Of a stretch of 64,000 nucleotides of DNA, positions 36,955 through 63,369 are shown one piece after another (the first letter of the stretch is position 1; every line of letters starts with the position of its first letter). Made by a program: the position numbers and the translations under genes. A model generated the notes under the pieces. That model saw nothing but the letters and a program-made list of their open reading frames with translations, searched no databases and was not told where the DNA came from. The stretch is from an uncultured Mycoplasmatota bacterium (GTDB taxonomy: Bacteria > Bacillota_I > Bacilli_A > Mycoplasmatales > Mycoplasmoidaceae): positions 9,883 to 73,882 of the forward strand of contig CATEWF010000001.1 in the NCBI GenBank assembly GCA_949527715.1. Direction: 5' to 3'.

Positions 36955-37779
36955 ATGAAATTCGATAGTTTAAAAGAAAAATGTGAGTATTATCGTGGTC
37001 TTAACGATTCAAGGCTTGTACCAAATTCATATGTGATGGTAATGCTTGATGGCAGGTCGTTTTCAAAAAACATTAAAAATCATTTTAAGAAACCTTTTGA
37101 TGAAGATTTTATTGAAATGATGAATGAAACGGCTAAATATGTTTGTGCAAATGTACAAGGTTGTAAGATGGCATATACACAAAGTGATGAAATTAGTCTA
37201 ATTATTACTGATTTTGAAGATATTAATACAGATTCATTCTTTGGTTTACGTAATAATAAACTACATTCAATCATTGCTTCCCTTGCTACTTCAAAATTTA
37301 ATCAACTTATGATAGAGTATGCCTTTGAAAATGCAGCAATTGTTAAAGCAGAATTTAATCTTAAAAATATTAAGAATATAATTAATGCAACTAAACTTTA
37401 TCAGTTTGATTGTAAATGTTGGAATGTACCTTCTTGGAATGATACATTTGCTTGGTTGCTATATCGTCAAATTGATTGTATTCGTAATTCAAAACAGCAA
37501 GCAGCACAGTCTTATTTATCACATAAAGAATTAGTAGGTAATGAATGTGATAAACAAATTGAAATGCTTAAAGATGCACATGGTATTGATTGGTATACAG
37601 AATATAATGATGGTATGAAATACGGACGTTTTATTTATCGTGATAAGGAACATTTTGTATCTGATAAATATGGCGAATACGAAAGAACTGTATGGAATAG
37701 TCATTATGCATTTCCTTTAATGGAAGACGGTGGGAAAGAGCGTTTTAATGAACTTAATTTAATACCAAAGTTGTCATGA
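36955..37779 (+). CDS. Thg1-like protein (tRNA-His guanylyltransferase family 3'-5' nucleotidyl polymerase, 274 aa)
   Basis: VMVMLDGRSFSK..FKKPFDEDF..(n)..AYTQSDEISLI matches the conserved Thg1/TLP catalytic core (R.DG..F...f.kP.D ... qSDEiS). Confidence 0.8.
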   Translation: MKFDSLKEKCEYYRGLNDSRLVPNSYVMVMLDGRSFSKNIKNHFKKPFDEDFIEMMNETAKYVCANVQGCKMAYTQSDEISLIITDFEDINTDSFFGLRNNKLHSIIASLATSKFNQLMIEYAFENAAIVKAEFNLKNIKNIINATKLYQFDCKCWNVPSWNDTFAWLLYRQIDCIRNSKQQAAQSYLSHKELVGNECDKQIEMLKDAHGIDWYTEYNDGMKYGRFIYRDKEHFVSDKYGEYERTVWNSHYAFPLMEDGGKERFNELNLIPKLS

Positions 37780-44741: not shown

Positions 44742-47444
44742 ATGAAGTTATTTTGTGATTTAAATAAAAAGACTATTGTCATATCAGATAAGCAACAAAA
44801 AATAATAAATGAAACGATTGCTTATCACGGTTCAAAAGCAAATTTTGAAGAATTTAATATTGCGTACATTGGTTATGGTACTGGTGCGCAAGAGTTTGGC
44901 GAAGGTATATATCTTACATTCGATAAAGAAACTGCTTATAGTTATGGTGGAACTGTCTATACAGTAGAAATACCAGACATCAATGATGGAAATTATATCT
45001 ATTACGATAGACCTGTATCAGGAGAGATTTTTCCTTCAATTGTTGATGGCATTATTGCAGATTTAAAATATCAGTATCCTGATGAATATGAAACAGAAGA
45101 AAGTATTAAAGAAATTAGAAATGAATTATATGAGATATTAAATCCTTCGGAAGGAAGGTATCTTATGTATAATATACATAGATATGTAGATGACCCAGTA
45201 GTCATACCTAAAATATTAAAAAGGGCTGGTGTTACAGGGTTTATATATAATAATGGTAAAGTAACTAATGTCGTAATGTTTTCTTCAAAAGATGTTAAAA
45301 TACTTAATAAAGAACATATAGAAGAAAATAAACATTATAATGAAGACTATTTCAATCCATCTGAATTATTATCTGAAAGTAAAACATATTATGCTAATAT
45401 GGATGAAAAATTGATAATTAAAGATGGAAGAACTGCAATAAAAACTACACCGACACAATTAGAGGATAAGATAAAAGAAATTTGGAAACTTAATAAAGAA
45501 GATGAATATACTAAACTTAAATATGCACTTCATCAATTAATGGCATATCCAAAAGGTAAAAAAGGCTTGGAACAATATGCAAAAGATATTTCAAAAATAA
45601 AGTTTGATGGTGAAAATTTTGAAATAATTGGCGATATAAGGACAAATAATAATGGTATATCTTATATTATTGCTGAGTCTGGCGGTGATTGGGAAATTCC
45701 TTTGTTAGTCTTTATCTATTTTGATGGAAAACATATCAGAGGATATATACCCACATATGGTAATTGTTTTGACCAAGATAAGAAAACGGCATTTGGTAAC
45801 GGAGATGACTTAGATTATGAGTTTATTAAAAATGAATTTAAAGATGAAAAAGCAAGCCCTTATGATATAAAAAATCATTTGAAATTTAATATTGATGCTT
45901 GTATTAAAGATTTTAATAAACATATTAAAGTTACTAAAGGTAAATTAAAAGAAAGCAGAAATATCATTACAGAATGTACATTTAGAGATTTATTGATTGA
46001 AGCCGCAACAATACAAGATATATATTCAAAATACTATTCAGATATACCAGAAGATGAATTTCAACAGATAATTCAATCTGACCCTACGTGGCGAGAAGAT
46101 AAACCAGATAAAATGGGAAAGTATGGTAAATGGTTGCTTAATTTATATAAACAAAATAAATTAAAAAATGAAGATTTATATAAAGCAAAAGATTATTTAT
46201 CTTATTTTGTTAAATATTATAATAAAGTATCTGAAAAAGATATTAATAAAATAAGTGATTTACCTTCTTTATATAATATAATTCAACAATTCAAAGAAGC
46301 ATCTGATAACGGAGAAGAAATTGCTACCTCTAAATCTGATGAAGTACGAAAGATTAAGAAAGATGCCGAAAAGTTTTATGAAGATGATACTTGGTTAGTT
46401 GTAATTCCACATACACAAGAAGCATCTTGTTATTACGGAAAGAATACCCAATGGTGTACTGCTGCTACTGATAGTTATAATATGTTTCATCAATATTATA
46501 AAGATGGTTTACTTTATATTAATATAAATAAGAAAACGAACCATAAATATCAGTTCCATTTTGAAGATGCACAATTTATGGATGAACGAGACCAATTTAT
46601 TAATACACCCATTGCAAAATCTATTGGTTTAACTAGTGGTTTACTACAAGCATATATATCTAAATATGGTGGTAGGGCAGCAATAGCATTGACTTGTACA
46701 GTTGATTGGGATGCAGACGAACCAATAGAAGGTGATGACCCATTTTATGTATATGTAGATTATGATGGCTATTATCATATAGTTCAAGTAAATGGTATAA
46801 ATGTTATGCCGTGTAAAGGCTTAACAACTGATAGTCTAACTTATGATAATGATGTAAGATATTTAGGTAATGGCATTTTCTATTATCACGACTATGAGGA
46901 AAACGAATATTATGATGAAGAAACTGATGAGTATTATATTGATGGAGAATATTCTGTTAGTGATGATTGGATAATGTTTGATGCTAAAACACAAAAACGC
47001 ATTAATCTATCTGAAAATGTTGGAAGTATTACACCAATAAATGATAGTTATTTTCAATATAGAGAGAATAATATTTATCATGTATTATCTTTCTATAATA
47101 TGCAAAAATGTTTTGAAACCAAAGAATTAGTGCAATCAACAAAGTATTTTATGGAATCATACAGATACCGAAATCCTAATCGTAAATTTACTCAATATGA
47201 TGATGACCTTATTGTATTAAGAAGTTATACTAAAGATGGTAGTCAAAATAAAATTTATAATATATATGAACAAAAATATATAATACCACCATTTAAAGAC
47301 TGGTATGTAAGTATTGAACTTGATGAAAATGGTTATGAATATATTGCATTCAGAGAATATAGTCCTGGTAATGGACATTCCAATTATTGTTTACTATTAT
47401 CAGACGGAACATTAAGTCAAGTTTATGACAAAATTAATAAATGA
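44742..47444 (+). CDS. large multidomain (polyvalent-like) protein (900 aa)
   Basis: Longest ORF in the window. N-terminal AYHGS..F..F....G.GIYLT...AYSYGG.VYTVE is reminiscent of ART-like modules of phage polyvalent proteins. A central conserved Cys/Trp module reads SCYYGKNTQWCTAA. Confidence 0.75.
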   Translation: MKLFCDLNKKTIVISDKQQKIINETIAYHGSKANFEEFNIAYIGYGTGAQEFGEGIYLTFDKETAYSYGGTVYTVEIPDINDGNYIYYDRPVSGEIFPSIVDGIIADLKYQYPDEYETEESIKEIRNELYEILNPSEGRYLMYNIHRYVDDPVVIPKILKRAGVTGFIYNNGKVTNVVMFSSKDVKILNKEHIEENKHYNEDYFNPSELLSESKTYYANMDEKLIIKDGRTAIKTTPTQLEDKIKEIWKLNKEDEYTKLKYALHQLMAYPKGKKGLEQYAKDISKIKFDGENFEIIGDIRTNNNGISYIIAESGGDWEIPLLVFIYFDGKHIRGYIPTYGNCFDQDKKTAFGNGDDLDYEFIKNEFKDEKASPYDIKNHLKFNIDACIKDFNKHIKVTKGKLKESRNIITECTFRDLLIEAATIQDIYSKYYSDIPEDEFQQIIQSDPTWREDKPDKMGKYGKWLLNLYKQNKLKNEDLYKAKDYLSYFVKYYNKVSEKDINKISDLPSLYNIIQQFKEASDNGEEIATSKSDEVRKIKKDAEKFYEDDTWLVVIPHTQEASCYYGKNTQWCTAATDSYNMFHQYYKDGLLYININKKTNHKYQFHFEDAQFMDERDQFINTPIAKSIGLTSGLLQAYISKYGGRAAIALTCTVDWDADEPIEGDDPFYVYVDYDGYYHIVQVNGINVMPCKGLTTDSLTYDNDVRYLGNGIFYYHDYEENEYYDEETDEYYIDGEYSVSDDWIMFDAKTQKRINLSENVGSITPINDSYFQYRENNIYHVLSFYNMQKCFETKELVQSTKYFMESYRYRNPNRKFTQYDDDLIVLRSYTKDGSQNKIYNIYEQKYIIPPFKDWYVSIELDENGYEYIAFREYSPGNGHSNYCLLLSDGTLSQVYDKINK

Positions 47445-47983: not shown

Positions 47984-49918
47984 TTACTTACTATAATGTT
48001 TTATCAGTTTATCCGTAATATCTGGTAGTGATATTTTTTCATAATTTCCATCGTTTTTAAGCCATATTAGTTTTCTGTCAATTACTTTATATCCTAAATT
48101 CATTAACATTAGTGCATAGGCAGATAATTGGAATGTATAATGTGATTTAGGTTCATCAATAAAATTATCAAATGGTGATAACATTGTTACATTAAAATTT
48201 TGATTATAATCGTTTATAATAGTCTTATTTGTATTATGTGTCACAAGCATATCATAACCACAACAATATGTGTGTGTTGGACTGTCAACTTCTATACATT
48301 TAGTTTGTACAGTTTCACAATATTCAACAGACTTTATATTTCTAAAGGTATTTCTTATACTTTTTTTGTTACTAATTTTTAGTCGTCTTATTTTAAAAGG
48401 ATATATATCAGTAGCAAAACTAATATCCCACTTATCAAATATTTTTTTATTTTTACAATTATTACATTTACCTTTTGCTTTAATAACGGTTGGCTTTATA
48501 CCTAAAGAATAAAGCAGTTTCATACTAAATTCAATTTGTTCTAACTTAGTTGTTGTTAACACATATCTATTTCTGGTAGCATTATAATATCCATCAGTAT
48601 CCATTAATCCTCTAAGGATATCTAATCTTTGTTCATAAGAAGCCCTAAGATATATATTAGGAATGTGTTTATTACCTAATAAACCAAGTAATTTTAATTG
48701 GTGTGCCAACCCAAAGATAGTTCTGGTTTGTGCTTTACCAGAGCCACCCTGTGAAACATCTTTTCCGATACTATAGCCGCATTTTATTATTTCATCCCAC
48801 AATTCTTGATACATATTAGTAACTTTCCCATCTATTTTATTACCATCACCTAACCATATTCCTAACACATACGGATGAATCGGTAAATCTACTTTAGGTA
48901 ATTCTATTGGTTTAGAATTCAATATTTTAGGTACTAAATGAGGTTTTAAATTTTTTTTACCTGTTTTTTTGTTAATAGTAAAATTATTTTCATTATGTAT
49001 AAAATTAAACAATTCTTTACCTGTCATTACAATAGTTTTAAAATATCTTTCTTTAACACCATTTGGAAATCTTTCTTGAAAAAATGAAATTTCCCATCTA
49101 TGTTCTTCATCACAAATTATTTCCGTATTATTATCAAATTTGATTTTTAAACATGGATTGTTATGTATTTGAGATACATTTAATACTTTTGTTGGTTGTC
49201 CATTTTTATCAAAAACAATATCGTTTTTCTCTATATCACCCATATTTTTCCATCCATCAATTGTAGCAATGGGTGTATCAAGTGGTAGTCCTTTATAATC
49301 GTGTAAAAGAATACACCATTCACCTTTATATTTCATTGCAAAAGTAATATCAGCAGTACCACAATATAACTTTTTAATACCAAATTTATTATCCTTTGGC
49401 ATATACATTTTTACTTCAGGTATTAAAGGATAGATTTCATTAATTTTAAATATATCTTCCCAGTATTTAGATATAGCCTCTTGTTTAGAAGCACAAGGTA
49501 TTAAATATCCTTCTTCATATTGTTTAATACATGAATTACAAAATGTAGATGGTTCTAACCCACGAACAAAATTCATATAACTTTCACCAAATTCATGATG
49601 TTGGGTACCTGAATTGGTTGCTTTTAAGTTAGTTTCTCTCCATCTTCGTTTAATTACCTCAACAGGTACATCTTCTCTAATTGCAACATTTTCGGCTTTT
49701 AAATCCCAATCAACATAAGGTTCAAACTCTTTTATTAAACCACTTACTGAAACAGGGGTATCAACGCTTCCATCTTCATTGTGAATGTAATATTTATGTC
49801 CTTCTTCAATAAATTCAAGATTACTAAAAGCAGATAAAATATTTTCTCTCATTTCAGTAACTTCTTTTGGTTCAGGATTTTTCTTTAATCGTTCTTTTAT
49901 ATCAGTTATATTTATCAT
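47984..49918 (-). CDS. PD-(D/E)XK (RecB/Cas4-like) nuclease interrupted by an intein (644-aa precursor)
   Basis: Exteins carry GTADI..(n)..LLHDYK | TNKT and QLSAYAL (D...DxK...QxxxY nuclease motifs); residues about 210-562 are an intein. Confidence 0.8.
   Translation of the reverse strand: MINITDIKERLKKNPEPKEVTEMRENILSAFSNLEFIEEGHKYYIHNEDGSVDTPVSVSGLIKEFEPYVDWDLKAENVAIREDVPVEVIKRRWRETNLKATNSGTQHHEFGESYMNFVRGLEPSTFCNSCIKQYEEGYLIPCASKQEAISKYWEDIFKINEIYPLIPEVKMYMPKDNKFGIKKLYCGTADITFAMKYKGEWCILLHDYKGLPLDTPIATIDGWKNMGDIEKNDIVFDKNGQPTKVLNVSQIHNNPCLKIKFDNNTEIICDEEHRWEISFFQERFPNGVKERYFKTIVMTGKELFNFIHNENNFTINKKTGKKNLKPHLVPKILNSKPIELPKVDLPIHPYVLGIWLGDGNKIDGKVTNMYQELWDEIIKCGYSIGKDVSQGGSGKAQTRTIFGLAHQLKLLGLLGNKHIPNIYLRASYEQRLDILRGLMDTDGYYNATRNRYVLTTTKLEQIEFSMKLLYSLGIKPTVIKAKGKCNNCKNKKIFDKWDISFATDIYPFKIRRLKISNKKSIRNTFRNIKSVEYCETVQTKCIEVDSPTHTYCCGYDMLVTHNTNKTIINDYNQNFNVTMLSPFDNFIDEPKSHYTFQLSAYALMLMNLGYKVIDRKLIWLKNDGNYEKISLPDITDKLIKHYSK
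48233..49291 (-). mobile_element. intein with LAGLIDADG homing endonuclease domain, class-3-like
   Basis: Block A GLPLDTPIATIDG (Gly in place of Cys1), block B DEEHRW, LAGLIDADG motifs LGIWLGDGN and LRGLMDTDGY, block F KCIEVDSPTHTY, block G LVTHN followed by Thr+1. Confidence 0.75.
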
Positions 49919-50023: not shown

Positions 50024-50353
50024 TTACTGCTTAATACAGAAATCATATATTTTTTCTACATGTTTTAAAAAATCCTCTTTCTGTAAAGTATGTTTCATAT
50101 AATTACAAATAGTACAACACGGAACACAGTTATCTTTTTGATAGCCTATATTAGGATTTAGTCTGTCTATTCCATTATAGGCAATTGGTGGTTGATGTGT
50201 ATCACCTCTTCTTTTTAGAATTTCTTTAGTCACCATTTTTGGTTCTATACCACAATAATGACAAGGTTGACTTATTAAATTATCAAATTCTTCAAAATTA
50301 AGATTAAAAGAATGATTTCTCTTATGTGCATTCCTTTTAGTAGTTCTATACAA
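50024..50353 (-). CDS. HNH endonuclease (109 aa as drawn; no ATG start)
   Basis: ..HSFNLNFEEFDNLISQPCHYCG..(n)..GIDRLNPNIGYQKDNCVPCCTICNYMKH is a phage HNH family pattern; the frame starts at a TTG and is open back to the tnpB stop codon. Confidence 0.7.
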   Translation of the reverse strand: MYRTTKRNAHKRNHSFNLNFEEFDNLISQPCHYCGIEPKMVTKEILKRRGDTHQPPIAYNGIDRLNPNIGYQKDNCVPCCTICNYMKHTLQKEDFLKHVEKIYDFCIKQ

Positions 50354-50560
50354 CCATTTTCTTAACCGTATATAAAAATCTAAGAAAAACTATGAGTTTA
50401 ACTTAGTTTCCATTTCTTGCTTCAACGAACCACTGCTTTTTAGGTTGTTTTCACAACGGTCATCCACTGTTGGGTTCTCCACAAGCGTTAATTCGGCAGT
50501 ACGGCTACCTACTAATATCTTATTCCCCTCAATCAATATGTTAATCGCAGCATTCAAATC
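50354..50560 (-). ncRNA. predicted TnpB omega-RNA (reRNA) region; boundaries not determined
   Basis: By analogy with characterised TnpB systems, the guide RNA scaffold overlaps the 3' end of tnpB and runs to the element right end; this stretch is locally GC-richer. Confidence 0.3.
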
Positions 50561-51646
50561 TCTGTCGTGATGTTCTCCACACATAGGGCAAGTCCACTCT
50601 CGCTCACCAAGTGACAAGTTCTTGTAAACATAACCACATTCGTGACAAGTTTTGGAACTCGCAAACCATCGGTCAACTTCGATAATAAACTTATCATTCA
50701 ACATTGCCTTATTCTTCAATGTATTCTTGAATGTGTAAAACCCAAGGTCTTGAATGGCTTTCGCCAATTTGTGGTTTTTCAACATTCCTTGAACATTGAG
50801 ATTTTCCATAAAAACATAATCATATGTTTTAAGTAGTGAATTTGCAATGAAATGGATATAGTCTAAACGTTGATTACTTAAATGTTCAAATACTTTCGCA
50901 AGTTTCCTTCTTGCTTTATTTCTGTTATTTGAACCTTTGGTTTTCTTGGAAAGTTGACGTTGGAGTTGCTTAATTTTATCTTCACTTCTTTTAAAGAAAT
51001 GTTTATTTTCAAACACTTCTCCATCAGAAGTTATAACAAAATCCTTGATGCCAAGGTCAATACCAACACGATTATCAGTATGTCTGAATTGTTTGAATTC
51101 CTTTTCGTTCATTGATAAAAGGACTGACAAAAAGAAATTACCACTCTTGGTTTTCGATAAGGTAGCACTCTTGATATTGTCTTTATATCTTTGCAATCTC
51201 TCAAAATAGAGATTTGAACAACGGAATTTAATGTTTTTCAGACTTTTGGTTAAGGAAATATGTTTCGTTTCAAATGTATTTGATTTGGATATTGCTTCAC
51301 AAGGGAACAATGCTGAGTTATTATCATGTTTGGACTTGAATTTTGGAAACCCTTTACCAAGTTTAAAGAAGCCGTCATAGGCAGATAACATTTGTCTTAT
51401 GGCTTGTTTCATCACTTTGGTATTTTGTTCTTTTAACCAAACATAATTTTCATCTTTCAGTAAAGTTCCATGAAAATATTTAGATAAATCAGTTAAACCT
51501 AAATTTGTTTTATTTTCGTTATATGTATTTTGTTTAAGAGCGAGCATTTGATTATAGACAAAACGATAACTACCAAGCACCTTATTAAGTGTTTGTTCTT
51601 GTGTCTTGTTAGGGTATAATCTTATTTTAACTGCTCTTAACATCAT
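50390..51646 (-). CDS. tnpB: TnpB RNA-guided endonuclease (IS605 OrfB family, 418 aa)
   Basis: N-terminal MLRAVKIRLYPNKTQEQ.L, RuvC-I VGIDLGIKDF, RuvC-II VFMENLNV, zinc finger CHECGYV..(n)..CPMCGEHHDRDLNAAINI containing the RuvC-III Asp. Confidence 0.9.
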   Translation of the reverse strand: MMLRAVKIRLYPNKTQEQTLNKVLGSYRFVYNQMLALKQNTYNENKTNLGLTDLSKYFHGTLLKDENYVWLKEQNTKVMKQAIRQMLSAYDGFFKLGKGFPKFKSKHDNNSALFPCEAISKSNTFETKHISLTKSLKNIKFRCSNLYFERLQRYKDNIKSATLSKTKSGNFFLSVLLSMNEKEFKQFRHTDNRVGIDLGIKDFVITSDGEVFENKHFFKRSEDKIKQLQRQLSKKTKGSNNRNKARRKLAKVFEHLSNQRLDYIHFIANSLLKTYDYVFMENLNVQGMLKNHKLAKAIQDLGFYTFKNTLKNKAMLNDKFIIEVDRWFASSKTCHECGYVYKNLSLGEREWTCPMCGEHHDRDLNAAINILIEGNKILVGSRTAELTLVENPTVDDRCENNLKSSGSLKQEMETKLNS

Positions 51647-51718
51647 AAATCAAACAAATGGGTTGATAACCCTTTCTATATATAAATATATTGTTAACAT
51701 AAAAAATGCCAAAAATTA

Positions 51719-52009
51719 TCAATTTTTCTTAATTTTTATGTTAACAGTTCTTAACCCTAATTGATGTTCTTTATTAAATTTAGCATCAACTCTTTCCTTC
51801 AATTTATAAAGATAACACCCTTGACTAATATATTCTTGACCAGTGTTCATATTAATACACTTCCACTTAGTTATAAAACATTTATTTGTAGGTATTCTAA
51901 TTTCTTCTATTACTTTATATACACCAAACACATCTCCAATTTTAACTGGGTATTTTAAAGCATTTTTCTTTATACTTCTATAATTAACACATGATTGTTG
52001 ATTTTCCAT
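51719..52009 (-). CDS. hypothetical protein (96 aa)
   Basis: ATG ORF ending 72 nt upstream of tnpB. Confidence 0.55.
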   Translation of the reverse strand: MENQQSCVNYRSIKKNALKYPVKIGDVFGVYKVIEEIRIPTNKCFITKWKCINMNTGQEYISQGCYLYKLKERVDAKFNKEHQLGLRTVNIKIKKN

Positions 52010-52032
52010 AATCAGGTTTAAAAATACTATTT

Positions 52033-52473
52033 TTATTCTTCATAATTGAAATCATTTTTAATCATATCATCTATATCATCTTGGTCTATTCCCCAATCTT
52101 GTATGAAACCATTTTCATCAATCGTCATTAAAACATAATCACCATATCCGCTATCGTCAATAGCGAAACAATCTGGAACATAAGAACTTATTTTCTTGAT
52201 TACATTTTTGTTCTCGTCAAATAGGGTATATTCACCATCATCACACACTTTATAATGTGTACAAGCAGTATTTCCTTTAACCCAGTTAAGTATCTGACCG
52301 TTATCAACATTAATCTCTAATACCCATCTATCATCTTCAATACAAGGCATTTTTGGTTCATCTGCATCATCTTCTTTACCATTTAAATAAGCATCTTCCC
52401 AATATCTAACACCAAAATCGGCTTTAATATATTTTAAATCATACTCTTTTTTAATTTTAAGTTCAACTTTCAT
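52033..52473 (-). CDS. acidic hypothetical protein (146 aa)
   Basis: ATG ORF on the - coding strand; D/E-rich. Confidence 0.65.
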   Translation of the reverse strand: MKVELKIKKEYDLKYIKADFGVRYWEDAYLNGKEDDADEPKMPCIEDDRWVLEINVDNGQILNWVKGNTACTHYKVCDDGEYTLFDENKNVIKKISSYVPDCFAIDDSGYGDYVLMTIDENGFIQDWGIDQDDIDDMIKNDFNYEE

Positions 52474-52476
52474 AAT

Positions 52477-52719
52477 TTATTCTACTATTTTAATATTATT
52501 TATAACTTCTTCTGGACTATCAAAAAGTACCTTTTCAGAAATTAAAGACTTTGACGGAATAAAATTTATCATTCCACTATGTGCAATAATTTCATATTTA
52601 GTTTCAATTGCATCTATATCTACAAAAATATGTATTTGCTTAATAGTTACTTGATAAATTGAATTATCAAGAATTGTATATGCTTTATCGTCAATATTAT
52701 ATTTTGTTTTAATATTCAT
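52477..52719 (-). CDS. hypothetical protein (80 aa)
   Basis: ATG ORF, - coding strand. Confidence 0.55.
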   Translation of the reverse strand: MNIKTKYNIDDKAYTILDNSIYQVTIKQIHIFVDIDAIETKYEIIAHSGMINFIPSKSLISEKVLFDSPEEVINNIKIVE

Positions 52720-52722
52720 ATT

Positions 52723-53091
52723 TTAATTAATTTTAATCGTTATTTCGCAATCTGAATTAATGTATTTGTGTCTTAATGTAATAATAAAACATACAAAATC
52801 ATCTATTATAACCGTATCATTAAAATAATATGTAGAATATTTACTGCTATAATGTTTTTTCTTTATTTCATAATCAAAATGATAGTCATATAGGTTGTCT
52901 TGAATGATTTTGTCTATTATATTTTCAATAAATACAAATGTTTGTGACATTATTGCTGTACATAATAATGAAGAAATATTATTACATATATCATAATATA
53001 CTTGATAATATAGTTCTTCATTATTTTTATATTTGTCGTTAATTATCAAACCAAAAGACTGCTCGGCATTCATATTCACCTGATAACTCAT
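52723..53091 (-). CDS. hypothetical protein (122 aa; start uncertain)
   Basis: Overlaps the upstream gene by 53 nt (35 nt if the second ATG at 53073 is used). Confidence 0.55.
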   Translation of the reverse strand: MSYQVNMNAEQSFGLIINDKYKNNEELYYQVYYDICNNISSLLCTAIMSQTFVFIENIIDKIIQDNLYDYHFDYEIKKKHYSSKYSTYYFNDTVIIDDFVCFIITLRHKYINSDCEITIKIN

Positions 53092-55030: not shown

Positions 55031-55304
55031 CTTTATTTTCTTTTTTATTTTTTAAATGTTCTATAAATAAATTTATTTCATCTCTCATTAAAATCATTTT
55101 ATTTAAAAAATCTTCTTCGGTGTCATATTCTGCTTTATGTATATTTGCTATATGATAACAATCAGAAATTTTAAAAAATTGACTTATATATGGTTTACCG
55201 TCAATAGTTTCAATACCATCAAAAGCGATTATATTACCTGTAGATGGACTATTATTTGGATTTAACCATACTCTTTTACTATAAAAAGTATTAACAGTTT
55301 CCAT
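55023..55304 (-). CDS. hypothetical protein (93 aa)
   Basis: ATG ORF, - coding strand. Confidence 0.55.
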   Translation of the reverse strand: METVNTFYSKRVWLNPNNSPSTGNIIAFDGIETIDGKPYISQFFKISDCYHIANIHKAEYDTEEDFLNKMILMRDEINLFIEHLKNKKENKDE

Positions 55305-56052
55305 TGCTACTTAATCTATTTAATGCATATTTACATTGTTCTGATGATATTTCACTACCAATATAGTTCAATTTCATCATTTTACAAGCAACTGCCGTTG
55401 TCCCTGTTCCCATAAATGGGTCATATACAATAGAATTAGGAAGAGCGTATATATCAAGTAATTGTTTACATAAATCACTTGAGAAAGTCGCTTGATTTAA
55501 TGTACATTTTCCATCATTATTTGCTGCTTCAATATGATTATATTTTACTTCATAATATTTTTGTCCAGTTTTTTCAGAAATAGATTTGACTTGTCTATTT
55601 GTATTAAATGTATTAGTTTCATTTTTCCTTGCGAATACAAATATATTTTCAAATAAACGAGATAATCTTCTTTTATTAGCAGGAAATGGAATACCATTTT
55701 TCTTTTTCCATATAATCGTATCAACAAGACTAAAATTAGTCATTTTATCTATCTCACAGATTACTTTATATGGTAATATCGGATTTTCAATTGAATAATT
55801 TATATTAAAAATAATGACACCATCTTTTTTCAATACATTATCAATTTTATTGAAAATTGATACCATCCAATTGATATATTCTTCTTCTGTTTTCCAATCT
55901 TGATAGACATCATATCTTCCAGTATCTGCATATCCACCTTTACGTTTTGTCATATTATAAGGCGGTGATGTTAAAACAATATCAATAGAATTTTTATCGA
56001 ACCTATCTAAAGTTAATATACAATCTTCATTATAAATCTGATTTATTTCCAT
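55291..56052 (-). CDS. DNA methyltransferase, beta-class N4-cytosine or N6-adenine (253 aa)
   Basis: Motif IV DIVLTSPPYN precedes motif I VYDPFMGTGTT, which is the beta-class order. Confidence 0.85.
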   Translation of the reverse strand: MEINQIYNEDCILTLDRFDKNSIDIVLTSPPYNMTKRKGGYADTGRYDVYQDWKTEEEYINWMVSIFNKIDNVLKKDGVIIFNINYSIENPILPYKVICEIDKMTNFSLVDTIIWKKKNGIPFPANKRRLSRLFENIFVFARKNETNTFNTNRQVKSISEKTGQKYYEVKYNHIEAANNDGKCTLNQATFSSDLCKQLLDIYALPNSIVYDPFMGTGTTAVACKMMKLNYIGSEISSEQCKYALNRLSSNGNC

Positions 56053-56062
56053 TTATATAATT

Positions 56063-56939
56063 CTATTTTTTATAATTTGTTATGAATACCTCATCAGTTG
56101 TAGTTTCCTTATTTTTACCGTGATAACTGCAATTTGAATAACTATTATTTAAATGGTAAACAACATAGTTATTGTTTTCTATCCATTCATTTAATATTGT
56201 GTTTTGTTTACCTTTATTTTCAAGAACGTTAGACAAACCAAAATATACACCTTTTTCGTCTAATGTGTCAAGTAATTTTAATAAATCTCTTTCATCATTC
56301 TCATTCCACCCATCTTTTTCATTATAAGATGCACAAGTAATTAAATATGGCGGGTCACAATACACATAATCACCTTTTTTCAGATTATGTACTTTTAATT
56401 TTCTAAAATCAATTGAATTAAAATTCACTTCTTTTATAGCATTATGGAATTTTAACAAGTTATTTTCAATTGTTTTGTTATAACAACTACGTTCTTTACC
56501 AAACGGCATATTAAATTCACCTTTTGAATTAAAACGTATTTGATGGTTAAAAGAAAAACAAATCAATATGAACAAATCCAATGGATTTCTTATTTCACTT
56601 TCATTAAAATGTTTTCTAAATAAGTTATAACCCTCAGTATTGCTAATGGTTAAATCATATTCTTTAATCTTTTCATTAATATATTTAATAATATCATCGA
56701 CAGTAGAACTTTGAAAAGACTTATAAATATTTACAACATTGCTATTAATATCATTAGCATATAATTTATAGCCATTAATGTTTGCAATTACATTTGCTCC
56801 ACCAGTAAATAAATCTATAAATGCTTGATTACCAATCATTTCGTCCGATGGGGGGGGGTAACAATGGAATTATTTGTGGTAATAGTTTATGTTTACCACC
56901 TGTATAATTTAATGGAGATTTAATAAAATTATTTTTCAT
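56063..56939 (-). pseudogene. dam: Dam-like (D12-class) N6-adenine DNA methyltransferase interrupted by a frameshift in a C9 tract
   Basis: ATG 56939 encodes MKNNFIKSPLNYTGGKHKLLPQIIPLLPPP, then stops at 56831-56829. The body (56839 downward) encodes IDLFTGGANV..VYCDPPYL. Removing one C from the C9 run (56850-56858) joins both parts in frame. Confidence 0.8.
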
Positions 56940-62250: not shown

Positions 62251-63369
62251 TTATTTATTAATTGCATTTTGTGTATTATTGGAGATAACATTGCAAATAA
62301 CGTGTTGAGGATTAAAGTCCATAACATCTTTAACATTGCAATAACTCATTGCAGAACACAAATAAGAAGCCATATTATCTACCCATTGAGGTACAGTACC
62401 ACTTACACGAAAATCTTTATGTATTCCTTCAGAAGTCTTGGTCTTTTTACCATTGATTGAACATTGTCCTTCTTTTGAAGCCATACCATAAAATTCTTTC
62501 ATTATGACATTTTTTTCATTTAGTTTCAGGAACGAATTCCAATCAGTATTATATTTTAAACGACCCCAAGAATATGTACTGCCATCTTCATATAAACGAT
62601 ATGTTTCACCTGCGCTTTCAATACATGAAGCAAACAAACCACCAATCATTACATAATCTGCTCCCAAAGATAATGCCTTAATTACATCGGAATAGTTTCG
62701 TATTCCACCATCAGCAATAATTTTAGGCATTTCATCCCATTCTTTTTTCAAATAGTTATTGTTATGATACGTGTTCAATTTCAATTCATATGCTTCATTT
62801 ATAAGTGAAGCCATTGGATAATGAATTGATGTATTACTTGAAGTGATACACCCAGAACCACCACCAATACCACATCTTACATAATCAATATCATATTTAT
62901 AACATTCAAAATAAGTTTCTGGATTAGCGATATTTCCTATCATAACAATAAGTTTATCTTTACCATGTAACTTTTTGGCATATTTAACTGCCTCATATAA
63001 CTGTTTCATATGTCCATTTGCCACATCAATAAGAACTTTCCAAGGAGTTTCGTGAATACTATCATATTCGTTAAAACACAATTCCTTAAATTCTTTTAGT
63101 GAAAACGCAGCCCATTTACCTGATTTAGCATAATTTATTCTTGTTACCAAATCAATATTTCTTGGTAAAATACTGTAAATACCATTATCCTCAAAATATT
63201 GACAATTTAAAGTATCTACCACAGTACTCATTGGTGCAGTAAATATAGGTAGCATTTTATTTTCCTTATCAATATAAGGATTACATTCTTTTCGTGAATT
63301 AATTTCAGATAGAACACAAGGTTCTACCATAATATCATTATATGAATATAGAATTTTTGTATGTAGCAT
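62251..63369 (-). CDS. IMP dehydrogenase / GMP reductase family enzyme without CBS insert (372 aa)
   Basis: Catalytic loop GIGGGSGCITSS, phosphate-binding IADGGIRNYSDVIKALSLGADYVMIGG; size fits GMP-reductase-like members. Confidence 0.8.
   Translation of the reverse strand: MLHTKILYSYNDIMVEPCVLSEINSRKECNPYIDKENKMLPIFTAPMSTVVDTLNCQYFEDNGIYSILPRNIDLVTRINYAKSGKWAAFSLKEFKELCFNEYDSIHETPWKVLIDVANGHMKQLYEAVKYAKKLHGKDKLIVMIGNIANPETYFECYKYDIDYVRCGIGGGSGCITSSNTSIHYPMASLINEAYELKLNTYHNNNYLKKEWDEMPKIIADGGIRNYSDVIKALSLGADYVMIGGLFASCIESAGETYRLYEDGSTYSWGRLKYNTDWNSFLKLNEKNVIMKEFYGMASKEGQCSINGKKTKTSEGIHKDFRVSGTVPQWVDNMASYLCSAMSYCNVKDVMDFNPQHVICNVISNNTQNAINK

What the first reader, a model, noticed from the sequence alone, without database searches (positions are those of the whole stretch)
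48233..49291. LAGLIDADG intein with class-3 (WCT) hallmarks and Gly at position 1, inserted after the catalytic Lys of a PD-(D/E)XK nuclease
The 644-aa ORF reads ..LLHDYK / GLPLDTPIATIDG...LVTHN / TNKT.. The flanks reconstitute a RecB/Cas4-like D..DYKT nuclease motif, so about 353 residues form an intein. It has two LAGLIDADG motifs (LGIWLGDGN, LRGLMDTDGY) and ends in HN followed by Thr+1. It begins with Gly where class-1 inteins need Cys or Ser. It carries Trp two residues after the block-B His (DEEHRW). It has Cys at the block-F position normally occupied by Asp (K-C-IEVDSPTHTY), and Thr just before the terminal HN. This W / C / T combination defines class-3 inteins, which splice through a block-F cysteine branch. 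I confirmed the GGA Gly codon on the reverse strand at 49291-49289. I do not recognise an intein in this type of phage nuclease with Gly1.
Basis: partly seen in the sequence, partly recalled or inferred. Interest (0 to 1): 0.65.

Follow-up and report, generated by a model that had tools for sequence, protein, structure and literature searches.

The report
Class 3 intein in phage nuclease

Summary
ORF 47984-49918 (-) encodes 644 aa. Residues 210-562 (window 49291-48233) form a 353-aa insert, DYK|GLPLDT...VTHN|TNK. More than 100 intein-less homologues read DYK|T(S/N)N, and the closest is exactly 291 aa, which fixes both junctions.

The insert is a HINT plus LAGLIDADG intein. Its best solved relatives are the class 3 DnaB inteins 6bs8 and 6rix. 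Gly1, Asp61/His64 (DxxH), Trp66, Cys332, Thr351-His352-Asn353 and Thr+1 map onto Ala1, Asp62/His65, Trp67, Cys118, Thr137-His138-Asn139 of Msm DnaBi1. All are invariant in 119-120 of 120 homologues. The spliced extein folds as a RecB-type PD-(D/E)XK nuclease (MGME1, AddAB, RecE).

It is not new in kind. Class 3 LAGLIDADG inteins at motif III of phage Cas4/RecB-like exonucleases have been surveyed (Kelley 2016; a 2025 preprint). Catera gp206, at this site, splices experimentally. GenBank examples (Traft412 gp72, Frankenweenie gp79) also start with Gly. Hundreds more occur in metagenomic phages.

Local additions are a divergence patch around the site against a near-identical intein-less genome, a relative with a decayed endonuclease but intact splicing residues, and Gly1 conserved through all four codons.

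Verdict: new member of a known kind, low-to-moderate interest.

The parts
47984..49918 (-). Precursor ORF, 644 aa plus stop: N-extein, intein, C-extein
   Evidence: The identical protein is found on at least 5 contigs.
49292..49918 (-). N-extein, aa 1-209, ending in nuclease motif III D207-Y-K209. Motif II is Asp190.
   Evidence: D190, D207 and K209 are invariant in 70 intein-less homologues. The AF2 model has pLDDT 96 and matches MGME1, AddAB, RecE and Cas4-family folds.
48233..49291 (-). Intein, 353 aa: HINT splicing domain split by a LAGLIDADG homing endonuclease domain
49289..49291 (-). Gly1 codon (GGA), a non-nucleophilic first residue
   Evidence: Gly is found in 120/120 protein homologues and at 24/24 D-x-K sites in IMG/VR, encoded by GGT, GGG, GGA and GGC.
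49151..49153 (-). Cys47, aligned with Cys48 of Msm DnaBi1, the disulfide partner of the catalytic Cys there
   Evidence: Alignment. At least 90% conserved in A3. The role in DnaBi1 comes from PMC6195587.
49094..49111 (-). Block B core D61-E-E-H64-R-W66: the class 3 DxxH motif plus Trp at B:12
   Evidence: D, H and W are invariant in 120/120. They align to Asp62, His65 and Trp67 of 6bs8.
48839..48865 (-). LAGLIDADG motif 1, LGIWLGDGN, with candidate catalytic Asp149
   Evidence: W146, G148, D149 and G150 at least 90% conserved. Fold match to PI-SceI.
48587..48616 (-). LAGLIDADG motif 2, LRGLMDTDGY, with candidate catalytic Asp233
   Evidence: Pfam PF14528, E 4e-8. G228, M230, D231 and G234 are invariant and D233 is at least 90% conserved.
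48296..48298 (-). Cys332 at block F position 4, the predicted initiating nucleophile
   Evidence: Aligns to Cys118 of 6bs8, which is the initiating nucleophile there. Cys in 119/120 homologues; the remaining one is a truncated sequence.
48233..48241 (-). Block G end Thr351-His352-Asn353: Thr at G:5, penultimate His, cyclising Asn
   Evidence: 119/120
47984..48232 (-). C-extein, 82 aa plus stop, starting with Thr+1-Asn+2 and containing the RecB-family QxxxY motif (Q244, Y248 of the spliced protein)

Best explanation
The gene encodes a RecB-type PD-(D/E)XK exonuclease of a large AT-rich phage. It is made as an inactive 644-aa precursor, because a 353-aa class 3 intein separates the catalytic Lys209 from Thr+1 of the D-Y-K-T-N motif.

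Inferred mechanism, by residue-for-residue homology with MP-Be DnaB, Msm DnaBi1 and Catera gp206:
1. The thiol of Cys332 (block F:4) attacks the Lys209-Gly1 peptide bond directly. It is helped by the block B Asp61/His64 pair and the Trp66 packing core. This gives the class 3 block F branched thioester.
2. The N-extein is passed to the hydroxyl of Thr+1, giving the block G branched ester.
3. Asn353 cyclises, assisted by His352 and Thr351, and releases the intein.
4. An O-to-N acyl shift restores the Lys-Thr peptide bond and with it the nuclease active site.

The freed intein is a two-motif LAGLIDADG homing endonuclease. It is expected to cut intein-less alleles at the DYK/TN coding sequence during co-infection, so that repair copies the intein together with flanking extein DNA.

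Shown here: the junctions, the fold, the residue identities, their conservation, the presence/absence polymorphism and the mosaic flanks. Inferred: the chemistry and the endonuclease activity.
For: Junctions: more than 100 intein-less homologues are collinear with the spliced product and read DYK|T/S/N-N.

Class:
- The top solved relatives are the class 3 inteins 6bs8 (E 1e-15) and 6rix/6riy, ahead of the class 1 gp41-1 at E 6e-7.
- G1, C47, D61, H64, W66, C332, T351, H352 and N353 align to A1, C48, D62, H65, W67, C118, T137, H138 and N139. The roles of these residues in DnaBi1 are described in PMC6195587.
- DxxH is a recognised class 3 block B variant.

Selection:
- G1, D, H, W, C, T-H-N and T+1 are invariant in 119-120 of 120 homologues that are only 45-68% identical.
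- Gly1 uses all four codons.
- In P0150 the endonuclease has decayed: both LAGLIDADG Asp residues are lost and there is a roughly 38-aa deletion. Every splicing residue is kept.

Structure: the AF2 intein model has pLDDT 95.8. It matches PI-SceI, TliVMA and PI-PfuI over the full length, and 6bs8/6rix at target-normalised TM 0.8. The AF2 extein model has pLDDT 96 and matches MGME1, AddAB, Exo5, RecE, ACE1 and Dna2.

Precedent:
- Catera gp206 (ELK|S...PTHN|T) is a class 3 intein at the same motif and 'spliced efficiently'.
- Surveys report 40 and 138 such nuclease inteins.
- Traft412 gp72 and Frankenweenie gp79 share Gly1.

Mobility:
- The near-identical intein-less contig L010 is 100% identical over gene nt 1-480. 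It diverges in a patch from about -150 to +180 nt around the insertion point, and the C-extein is 84.6% identical against 95-98.5% in the flanks.
- Intein identity (median 53%) exceeds extein identity (median 34%) across 119 hosts.
Against: - There is no experimental datum for this intein or for any Gly1 member that I could read.
- The only Gly1 intein discussed in the literature I could read, Arsp-FB24 Arth_1007, is a splicing-dead pseudogene. It lacks His B:10 and Cys F:4, which this one has.
- The divergence patch next to the site could reflect recombination unrelated to homing.
- The class assignment by nearest neighbours and a rough NJ tree is not a supported phylogeny.
Confidence: 0.87

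Rival explanations
1. The intein splices by a class 2-like (KlbA-type) route. Thr+1 attacks the Lys209-Gly1 amide directly, and Cys332 is only structural.
For: Position 1 is non-nucleophilic, as in class 2 inteins.
Against: Class 2 inteins are confined to archaeal KlbA, begin with Ala1, use Cys+1 and lack the WCT triplet. Here W, C and T are invariant and Cys332 aligns to the proven initiating nucleophile Cys118 of DnaBi1. A Thr hydroxyl attacking an amide directly has no precedent in the papers read.
Confidence: 0.04
2. The insert is a splicing-dead relic, either a pseudogene or a tolerated insertion domain. The nuclease would then be non-functional or would work with the insert in place.
For: A Gly1 class 3-like intein, Arsp-FB24 Arth_1007, is a pseudogene. 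There are no experimental data for this member.
Against: All catalytic residues are intact and invariant over 120 diverged homologues. They are kept even where the endonuclease has decayed. The insert splits the invariant D-x-K|T-N active-site motif, so an unspliced product should be inactive. The ORF is intact and identical on at least 5 contigs.
Confidence: 0.05
3. It is a class 1 intein whose true N-terminal junction lies at a nearby Cys or Ser rather than at Gly.
For: None beyond the rarity of Gly1. A Cys is present at -6 (EWCILLHDYK).
Against: Intein-less alleles continue through ...C-I-L/I-x-x-D-Y-K and resume at T/S-N. Any shift of the junction would delete conserved active-site residues or change the length from 291 aa. 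Block A (G-L-P-L-D-T-P-I) aligns position 2 to position 2 of the class 3 structures.
Confidence: 0.01
4. The intein splices, but its homing endonuclease is no longer active. It would persist only by vertical descent, and the divergence patch near the site would come from ordinary phage recombination.
For: Endonuclease decay does occur in this lineage, as in P0150. Phage genomes are mosaic anyway, and the same pair of contigs differs by other indels.
Against: Both LAGLIDADG motifs and their acidic residues are intact and conserved here. The only strongly diverged stretch between two otherwise 95-100% identical contigs is centred on the insertion point.
Confidence: 0.2

Closest known systems
Class 3 LAGLIDADG inteins of actinobacteriophage Cas4/RecB-like exonucleases (e.g. 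Mycobacterium phage Traft412 gp72, Streptomyces phage Frankenweenie gp79; surveyed in PMC5050341 and bioRxiv 10.1101/2025.01.02.630785)
   Same: Same insertion point, after the Lys of motif III: D-Y/W-K|G...T-H-N|T. Same Gly1, DxxH-x-W, Cys F:4 and Thr G:5, and same two-motif LAGLIDADG domain of about 330-350 aa. They fall in one clade with the window intein in a rough NJ tree.
   Different: Only 35-37% identical. The host phages are high-GC actinophages, whereas this window is 27% GC. The extein here has no Pfam hit and lacks any conserved Cys cluster, so it is RecB/MGME1-like rather than Cas4 proper.
Mycobacteriophage Catera gp206 intein (class 3, experimentally splicing; Tori & Perler 2011 as cited in PMC3196547)
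   Same: A class 3 WCT intein with a LAGLIDADG domain at the same nuclease motif (E-L-K|...P-T-H-N|T). Intein-plus and intein-less alleles coexist in related phages.
   Different: It begins with Ser1, not Gly1. It groups with terminase inteins rather than with the D-x-K/Gly1 clade, which suggests a separate invasion of the site.
Msm DnaBi1 (PDB 6bs8) and Mch DnaB1 (6rix/6riy) class 3 mini-inteins
   Same: These are the best solved relatives (E 1e-15). All catalytic positions correspond, including the Cys48-equivalent Cys47.
   Different: They have Ala1, no endonuclease domain and Ser+1, and they are inserted in the DnaB P-loop of bacteria.
Class 3 inteins in phage terminase large subunits (Tarkin gp10/Cjw1 gp8, Vibrio 489E54-1, Synechococcus B23)
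   Same: 31-34% identical over the full length, with the same WCT, THN|T and LAGLIDADG architecture. They are also inserted after a catalytic Lys followed by Thr.
   Different: They sit in the Walker A G-K|T motif and almost always have Ala1. Ala is found at 30 of 35 non-nuclease sites in IMG/VR, and a few have Gly1.
MP-Be DnaB intein (class 3 prototype, PMC2807308)
   Same: It defines the mechanism invoked here: WCT triplet, Thr+1, no N-terminal nucleophile, LAGLIDADG-containing, phage-borne.
   Different: It has Pro1 and Ser at B:7, and its host is a helicase.
PI-SceI / VMA-type inteins
   Same: Overall two-domain architecture. These are the top full-length fold matches, E 1e-17.
   Different: They are class 1 (Cys1, Asp F:4), larger, and carry an extra DNA-recognition region.

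Membership tests
Class 3 inteins (Tori et al. 2010) | HINT splicing domain with blocks A, B, F and G | tested here: met
   phmmer to 6bs8/6rix covers blocks A-B and F-G. Foldseek target-normalised TM is 0.8 to class 3 DnaB inteins.
Class 3 inteins (Tori et al. 2010) | No Cys/Ser/Thr nucleophile at intein position 1 | tested here: met
   Gly1, codon GGA at 49291-49289. The junction is fixed by intein-less alleles.
Class 3 inteins (Tori et al. 2010) | Trp at block B position 12 | tested here: met
   Trp66, two residues after His64, aligns to Trp67 of 6bs8. Present in 120/120 homologues.
Class 3 inteins (Tori et al. 2010) | Cys at block F position 4 | tested here: met
   Cys332 aligns to Cys118 of 6bs8. 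Present in 119/120 homologues.
Class 3 inteins (Tori et al. 2010) | Thr at block G position 5, followed by His-Asn | tested here: met
   T351-H352-N353.
Class 3 inteins (Tori et al. 2010) | Thr or Ser (rarely Cys) as first C-extein residue | tested here: met
   Thr+1 here, and Thr in 119/120 homologues.
Class 3 inteins (Tori et al. 2010) | Splicing through a block F branched thioester that depends on Cys F:4 | not testable with these tools
   Needs expression and mutants. Precedent exists only in relatives: MP-Be DnaB, DnaBi1, Catera gp206.
Class 3 inteins (Tori et al. 2010) | Grouping with the class 3 clade, reported as monophyletic | tested here: inconclusive
   The nearest solved and annotated relatives are all class 3, and the NJ tree places it among them. 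No class 1 outgroup and no support values were computed.
LAGLIDADG homing endonucleases (intein-borne, two-motif) | Two LAGLIDADG motifs, each with a conserved acidic residue, in an I-DmoI/PI-SceI-like fold | tested here: met
   PF14528, E 4e-8. Motifs at intein residues 143-151 and 226-235 with D149 and D233. Fold matches to PI-SceI and I-DmoI.
LAGLIDADG homing endonucleases (intein-borne, two-motif) | Site-specific cleavage of the intein-less allele | not testable with these tools
   The only evidence is indirect: the mosaic patch centred on the site against L010.
RecB-type PD-(D/E)XK nucleases | Motif II Asp, motif III (D/E)-x-K, and the QxxxY motif | tested here: met
   D190, D207, K209, Q244 and Y248 are invariant in 70 homologues. 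PHROG 298 'exonuclease', E 5e-15.
RecB-type PD-(D/E)XK nucleases | Restriction-endonuclease-like fold | tested here: met
   The AF2 model has pLDDT 96. Foldseek matches MGME1 (E 3e-4, prob 1.0), AddAB, Exo5, RecE, ACE1 and Dna2.
RecB-type PD-(D/E)XK nucleases | Match to Pfam PDDEXK_1 (PF12705) or sequence match to a solved member | tested here: not met
   The spliced extein has no Pfam hit even at E 10. The family profile finds no PDB sequence. Membership therefore rests on motifs and fold.
Cas4 proper | Four conserved Cys residues binding an Fe-S cluster | tested here: not met
   No Cys is among the invariant or at-least-90% conserved columns of the extein family. The extein should be called RecB/MGME1-like, not Cas4.
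Class 2 inteins (KlbA type) | Ala1, Cys+1, no WCT triplet, archaeal KlbA host | tested here: not met
   This intein has Gly1, Thr+1, a WCT triplet and a phage nuclease host.

The most novel reading that the evidence does not exclude
Position 1 of class 3 inteins is not a free, 'anything but a nucleophile' position. It is tuned to the N-extein context. The whole D-x-K nuclease clade keeps Gly1 under purifying selection, with all four codons used across lineages as distant as actinophages and this AT-rich phage. The P-loop (G-K) clade keeps Ala1.

In addition, the conserved Cys47/Cys332 pair, equivalent to Cys48/Cys118 of DnaBi1, could make maturation of the phage nuclease redox-conditional. Neither point is discussed in the papers I could read.
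Probability: 0.25. Interest if true: 0.4.

Novelty: new member of a known kind. Interest (0 to 1): 0.25.

Why it matters
This is a clean, fully intact class 3 intein with an apparently live homing endonuclease, in a phage lineage far from the actinobacteriophages where such nuclease inteins were described. It shows that the D-x-K|Gly1 clade is widespread:
- 596 protein clusters.
- At least 581 IMG/VR loci, counting the whole family including relatives at other sites.
- 525 GenBank phage records for the wider family.

The natural series found here could serve as material for studying the homing cycle and the role of residue 1 in class 3 splicing. The series consists of an intein-less near-identical genome, an intact intein, and a relative with a decayed endonuclease. 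It does not reveal a new mechanism.

Tried and rejected
- A megablast of 8 kb around the gene against GenBank phages found nothing, so the phage itself is uncharacterised.
- Pfam gave no family for the spliced extein, and a 70-sequence profile found no solved structure by sequence. The nuclease assignment therefore had to come from motifs, PHROG 298 and predicted fold.
- A shifted junction at a Cys or Ser was considered and rejected on the intein-less alleles.
- A class 2 mechanism was considered and rejected on WCT invariance.
- I considered whether the 167-aa in-frame extra segment of the neighbouring 900-aa ORF might be a second intein. It has no intein motifs and only a non-significant ART-PolyVal hit.
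- Supplementary Table 1 of Tori et al. 2010, listing position-1 residues of 34 class 3 inteins, and the full text of Tori & Perler 2011 were not available. I could not establish whether Gly1 with an intact WCT was already tabulated there.
- The exhaustive representative search and the third homology search were not used, because three independent collections already gave consistent censuses.
Full report
**1. Observation**

The window carries a 644-aa ORF on the minus strand, 47984..49918. Reading the reverse strand gives ...GAT TAT AAA GGA CTA CCA CTT..., which is D-Y-K-G-L-P-L, with GGA at 49291-49289. Further on it gives ...GTG ACA CAT AAT ACA AAT AAG..., which is V-T-H-N-T-N-K, with the Asn codon at 48235-48233. 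The insert is exactly 353 aa and the remaining extein is 291 aa. The window is 27% GC.

**2. Junctions**

A search with the conceptually spliced 291-aa protein found 178 relatives.
- The best, P0001, is 92% identical, covers 100% of the query and is itself 291 aa long.
- In a 14-sequence alignment the intein-less proteins run straight from D-[YFW]-K into T-N, or S-N in P0001 and N-N in P0089. The window protein has 353 extra residues at precisely that point.
- No shifted junction is compatible with this, so the intein starts with Gly.
- The identical 644-aa protein is on at least five contigs, so the Gly codon is not an error.

**3. What the insert is**

- Pfam sees a LAGLIDADG_3 domain (E 4e-8).
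- Against PDB sequences the best hits are the class 3 DnaB inteins 6bs8 (Msm DnaBi1, E 1.1e-15) and 6rix/6riy (Mch DnaB1). These are well ahead of the class 1 gp41-1 intein at E 6e-7.
- The HMMER alignments put query residue 2 on chain residue 2. They pair HRW with HQW, TKCIEVDSPTHTY with VRCVEVDNPEHLY, and VTHN with PTHN.
- In DnaBi1 these residues are Ala1, Asp62/His65 (a DxxH block B), Trp67, the initiating nucleophile Cys118, and Thr137-His138-Asn139 (PMC6195587). DxxH is described as the class 3 form of block B (PMC12245125).
- An AlphaFold2 model built on 70 homologues has mean pLDDT 95.8. It matches full-length intein endonucleases (PI-SceI E 9e-18, TliVMA, PhoVMA, PI-PfuI). Its HINT part matches 6bs8/6rix with target-normalised TM about 0.8.

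**4. What the host protein is**

- The spliced extein has no Pfam hit, and its family profile finds no PDB sequence.
- It does match PHROG 298 'exonuclease' (E 5e-15).
- Its 70-member family has invariant D190, D207, K209, Q244 and Y248. These are motif II, motif III (D-x-K) and the RecB-family QxxxY motif.
- Its AF2 model (pLDDT 96.2) retrieves MGME1, the AddAB nuclease domains, Exo5, RecE, the Cas4-family ACE1 and Dna2.
- The intein therefore does sit directly after the catalytic Lys of a RecB-type PD-(D/E)XK nuclease.
- No Cys is conserved in the family, so it is not a Cas4 in the strict Fe-S sense.
- The nearest annotated phage relatives of the extein are exonucleases of Flavobacterium and Bacteroides phages, at about 30% identity.

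**5. Conservation**

The intein has 596 relatives in the protein collection.
- In all 120 listed, the context is D-[Y/W/F]-K|G-L.
- Gly1, Leu2, Asp(B:7), His(B:10) and Trp(B:12) are invariant in all 120. Thr-x-Cys(F:4), Thr-His-Asn, Thr+1 and Asn+2 are present in 119 of 120. The one exception is a truncated sequence.
- These proteins are only 45-68% identical to the query in the intein. The median is 34% in the extein against 53% in the intein.

In an independent collection (IMG/VR), 581 loci encode relatives. Among 59 that I read at the DNA level:
- All 24 D-x-K sites have Gly1, encoded by GGT, GGG, GGA or GGC. That pattern is purifying selection on the amino acid.
- Sites in P-loop-like contexts (G-K|) have Ala1 in 30 of 35 cases and Gly1 in 5.
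- GenBank terminase inteins read G-K|A-L....

A rough NJ tree puts all D-x-K/Gly1 inteins, including the window's, in one clade. There are no support values.

**6. Evidence for mobility and for selection on splicing**

Comparison with contig L010 (Logan ERR10101910):
- L010 carries the intein-less allele P0001 in the same gene neighbourhood.
- The flanks are 95-98.5% identical.
- The first 480 nt of the gene are 100% identical.
- Differences are concentrated from about 150 nt upstream to about 180 nt downstream of the insertion point, with 10-11 differences per 30 nt right at the junction. The C-extein is 84.6% identical.
- This is the pattern expected if the intein arrived by recombination with co-conversion of flanking extein DNA. 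It does not prove endonuclease-driven homing.

Comparison with P0150, on a 238-kb contig:
- Its exteins are 54-59% identical to the window's.
- It carries the same intein lineage, with HINT parts 73-81% identical and the first 70 residues nearly identical.
- Its endonuclease domain is only 32% identical, has a roughly 38-aa deletion, and has lost the acidic residues of both LAGLIDADG motifs.
- Gly1, DxxH-x-W, Cys F:4 and THN|T are all retained.
- Splicing residues, including Gly1, therefore stay under selection after the endonuclease dies. That argues against a splicing-dead relic.

**7. Mechanism**

By homology the intein should follow the class 3 pathway established for MP-Be DnaB (PMC2807308) and DnaBi1.
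1. Cys332 attacks the Lys209-Gly1 amide to form the block F branched thioester.
2. Thr+1 takes over the N-extein.
3. Asn353 cyclises.
4. An O-N shift restores D-Y-K-T-N.

The released intein is a LAGLIDADG endonuclease with Asp149 and Asp233 in place. The chemistry and the DNA cleavage are inferred, not shown.

**8. Comparison with what is known**

Class 3 inteins were defined by a non-nucleophilic residue 1 co-varying with the WCT triplet and Thr/Ser+1.

Inteins in phage RecB/Cas4-like exonucleases are published:
- Kelley et al. 2016 found 40 in cluster C1 mycobacteriophages, with a single insertion point in the PD-(D/E)XK motif.
- A 2025 preprint counts 138 class 3 LAGLIDADG inteins in actinobacteriophage Cas4 exonucleases, at RecB motif III (E-F-K-T). 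It argues that they derive from terminase inteins by 'extein switching'.
- Catera gp206 reads ...E-L-K|S-L-A-C-S-T-P-I...P-T-H-N|T. It is cited as a class 3 intein that splices efficiently, and intein-plus and intein-less alleles of it coexist.

A tblastn of the window intein against GenBank phages hits 525 records. The best annotated ones, at 35-37% identity, are Cas4/RecB-like exonucleases of Traft412, Dexes, Zeeculate, DiMaria and Frankenweenie.
- Traft412 gp72 reads V-V-D-Y-K|G-L-D-L-D-T...P-T-H-N|T.
- Frankenweenie gp79 reads L-V-D-W-K|G-L-A-L-D-T...V-T-H-N|T.
- An unannotated human-faecal phage scaffold (MT835539) has a 47%-identical copy at D-H-K|G.

So Gly1, the site, the class and the architecture all have deposited and surveyed precedents.

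I did not find Gly1 itself discussed in the papers I could read. The only mention is the Arsp-FB24 Gly1/WDT intein, a pseudogene.

**9. Verdict**

The finding is real and correctly interpreted, and it is ordinary in kind: a new, distant member of a known intein clade in an uncharacterised AT-rich phage. The modest points of interest are three:
- The strict Gly1 conservation specific to the nuclease-site clade.
- The conserved Cys47, which corresponds to the redox partner Cys48 of DnaBi1.
- The natural intein-less, intact and decayed-endonuclease series.

Noticed in passing
window 50111-52922 (TnpB ORF 50390-51646, minus strand): A segment of about 2.8 kb is absent from the otherwise 96-98% identical contig L010. 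It contains an IS605-type TnpB (OrfB_IS605 plus the Cas12f1-like TNB domain, PHROG 506 E 1e-114), the start of an HNH/endonuclease-VII-like ORF (50024-50353) and three small ORFs. The junctions share only a short ATTTGTA-like stretch. This looks like a recent mobile-element insertion next to the intein gene.
   Followed up: partly
window 44838-45338, inside ORF 44742-47444 (+): The 900-aa ORF has a 167-aa in-frame segment that the L010 orthologue (733 aa) lacks. It lies between ...AYHGSK and NEDYFNPS... It has no intein motifs and only a non-significant hit to ART-PolyVal, an ADP-ribosyltransferase of polyvalent proteins (E 0.17).
   Followed up: partly
L092 3001-4845 (protein P0150, 238-kb contig): This is an orthologous intein whose splicing domain is 73-81% identical to the window's. 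Its LAGLIDADG domain has decayed: both catalytic Asp residues are lost and there is a roughly 38-aa deletion. It represents a late stage of the homing cycle in the same lineage.
   Followed up: yes
window 49151-49153 (intein Cys47): Cys47 is at least 90% conserved in the family. It aligns with Cys48 of Msm DnaBi1, which forms a regulatory disulfide with the catalytic Cys118 and is needed for splicing there. A redox-sensitive splicing switch is conceivable here.
   Followed up: no
L042, L074 (IMG/VR) and L037-L039: These class 3 inteins sit in Walker-A-like contexts (R-K-N-G-K|G-L-A-L-D-T, and A-K-K|G-L-A-L-D-T) and also begin with Gly. Gly1 is therefore not exclusive to nuclease hosts. In the NJ tree they fall outside the D-x-K clade.
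   Followed up: partly
L010 1976-2428: The intein-less relative has an extra 150-aa gene with no family match between the nuclease gene and the 162-aa gene. This gene is missing from the window, so this neighbourhood is a hotspot of indels.
   Followed up: no
window 55291-56839 (-), 36955-37779 (+), 62251-63369 (-): There are two adjacent DNA methyltransferases (N6_N4_Mtase and a D12-class Dam-like enzyme), a Thg1-like tRNA-His guanylyltransferase and an IMPDH/GMP-reductase-like gene. Thg1 and the nuclease are also neighbours on the 238-kb contig L092, and extein relatives lie on contigs up to 379 kb. This suggests a large or jumbo phage lineage.
   Followed up: no
L004 11999-13762 (Catera gp206) versus L008 (Tarkin TerL): Catera gp206 sits at the same nuclease motif but groups with terminase inteins rather than with the Gly1 nuclease clade. 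This is consistent with two independent invasions of the D/E-x-K|T site, as the 2025 preprint proposes. The tree is rough.
   Followed up: partly
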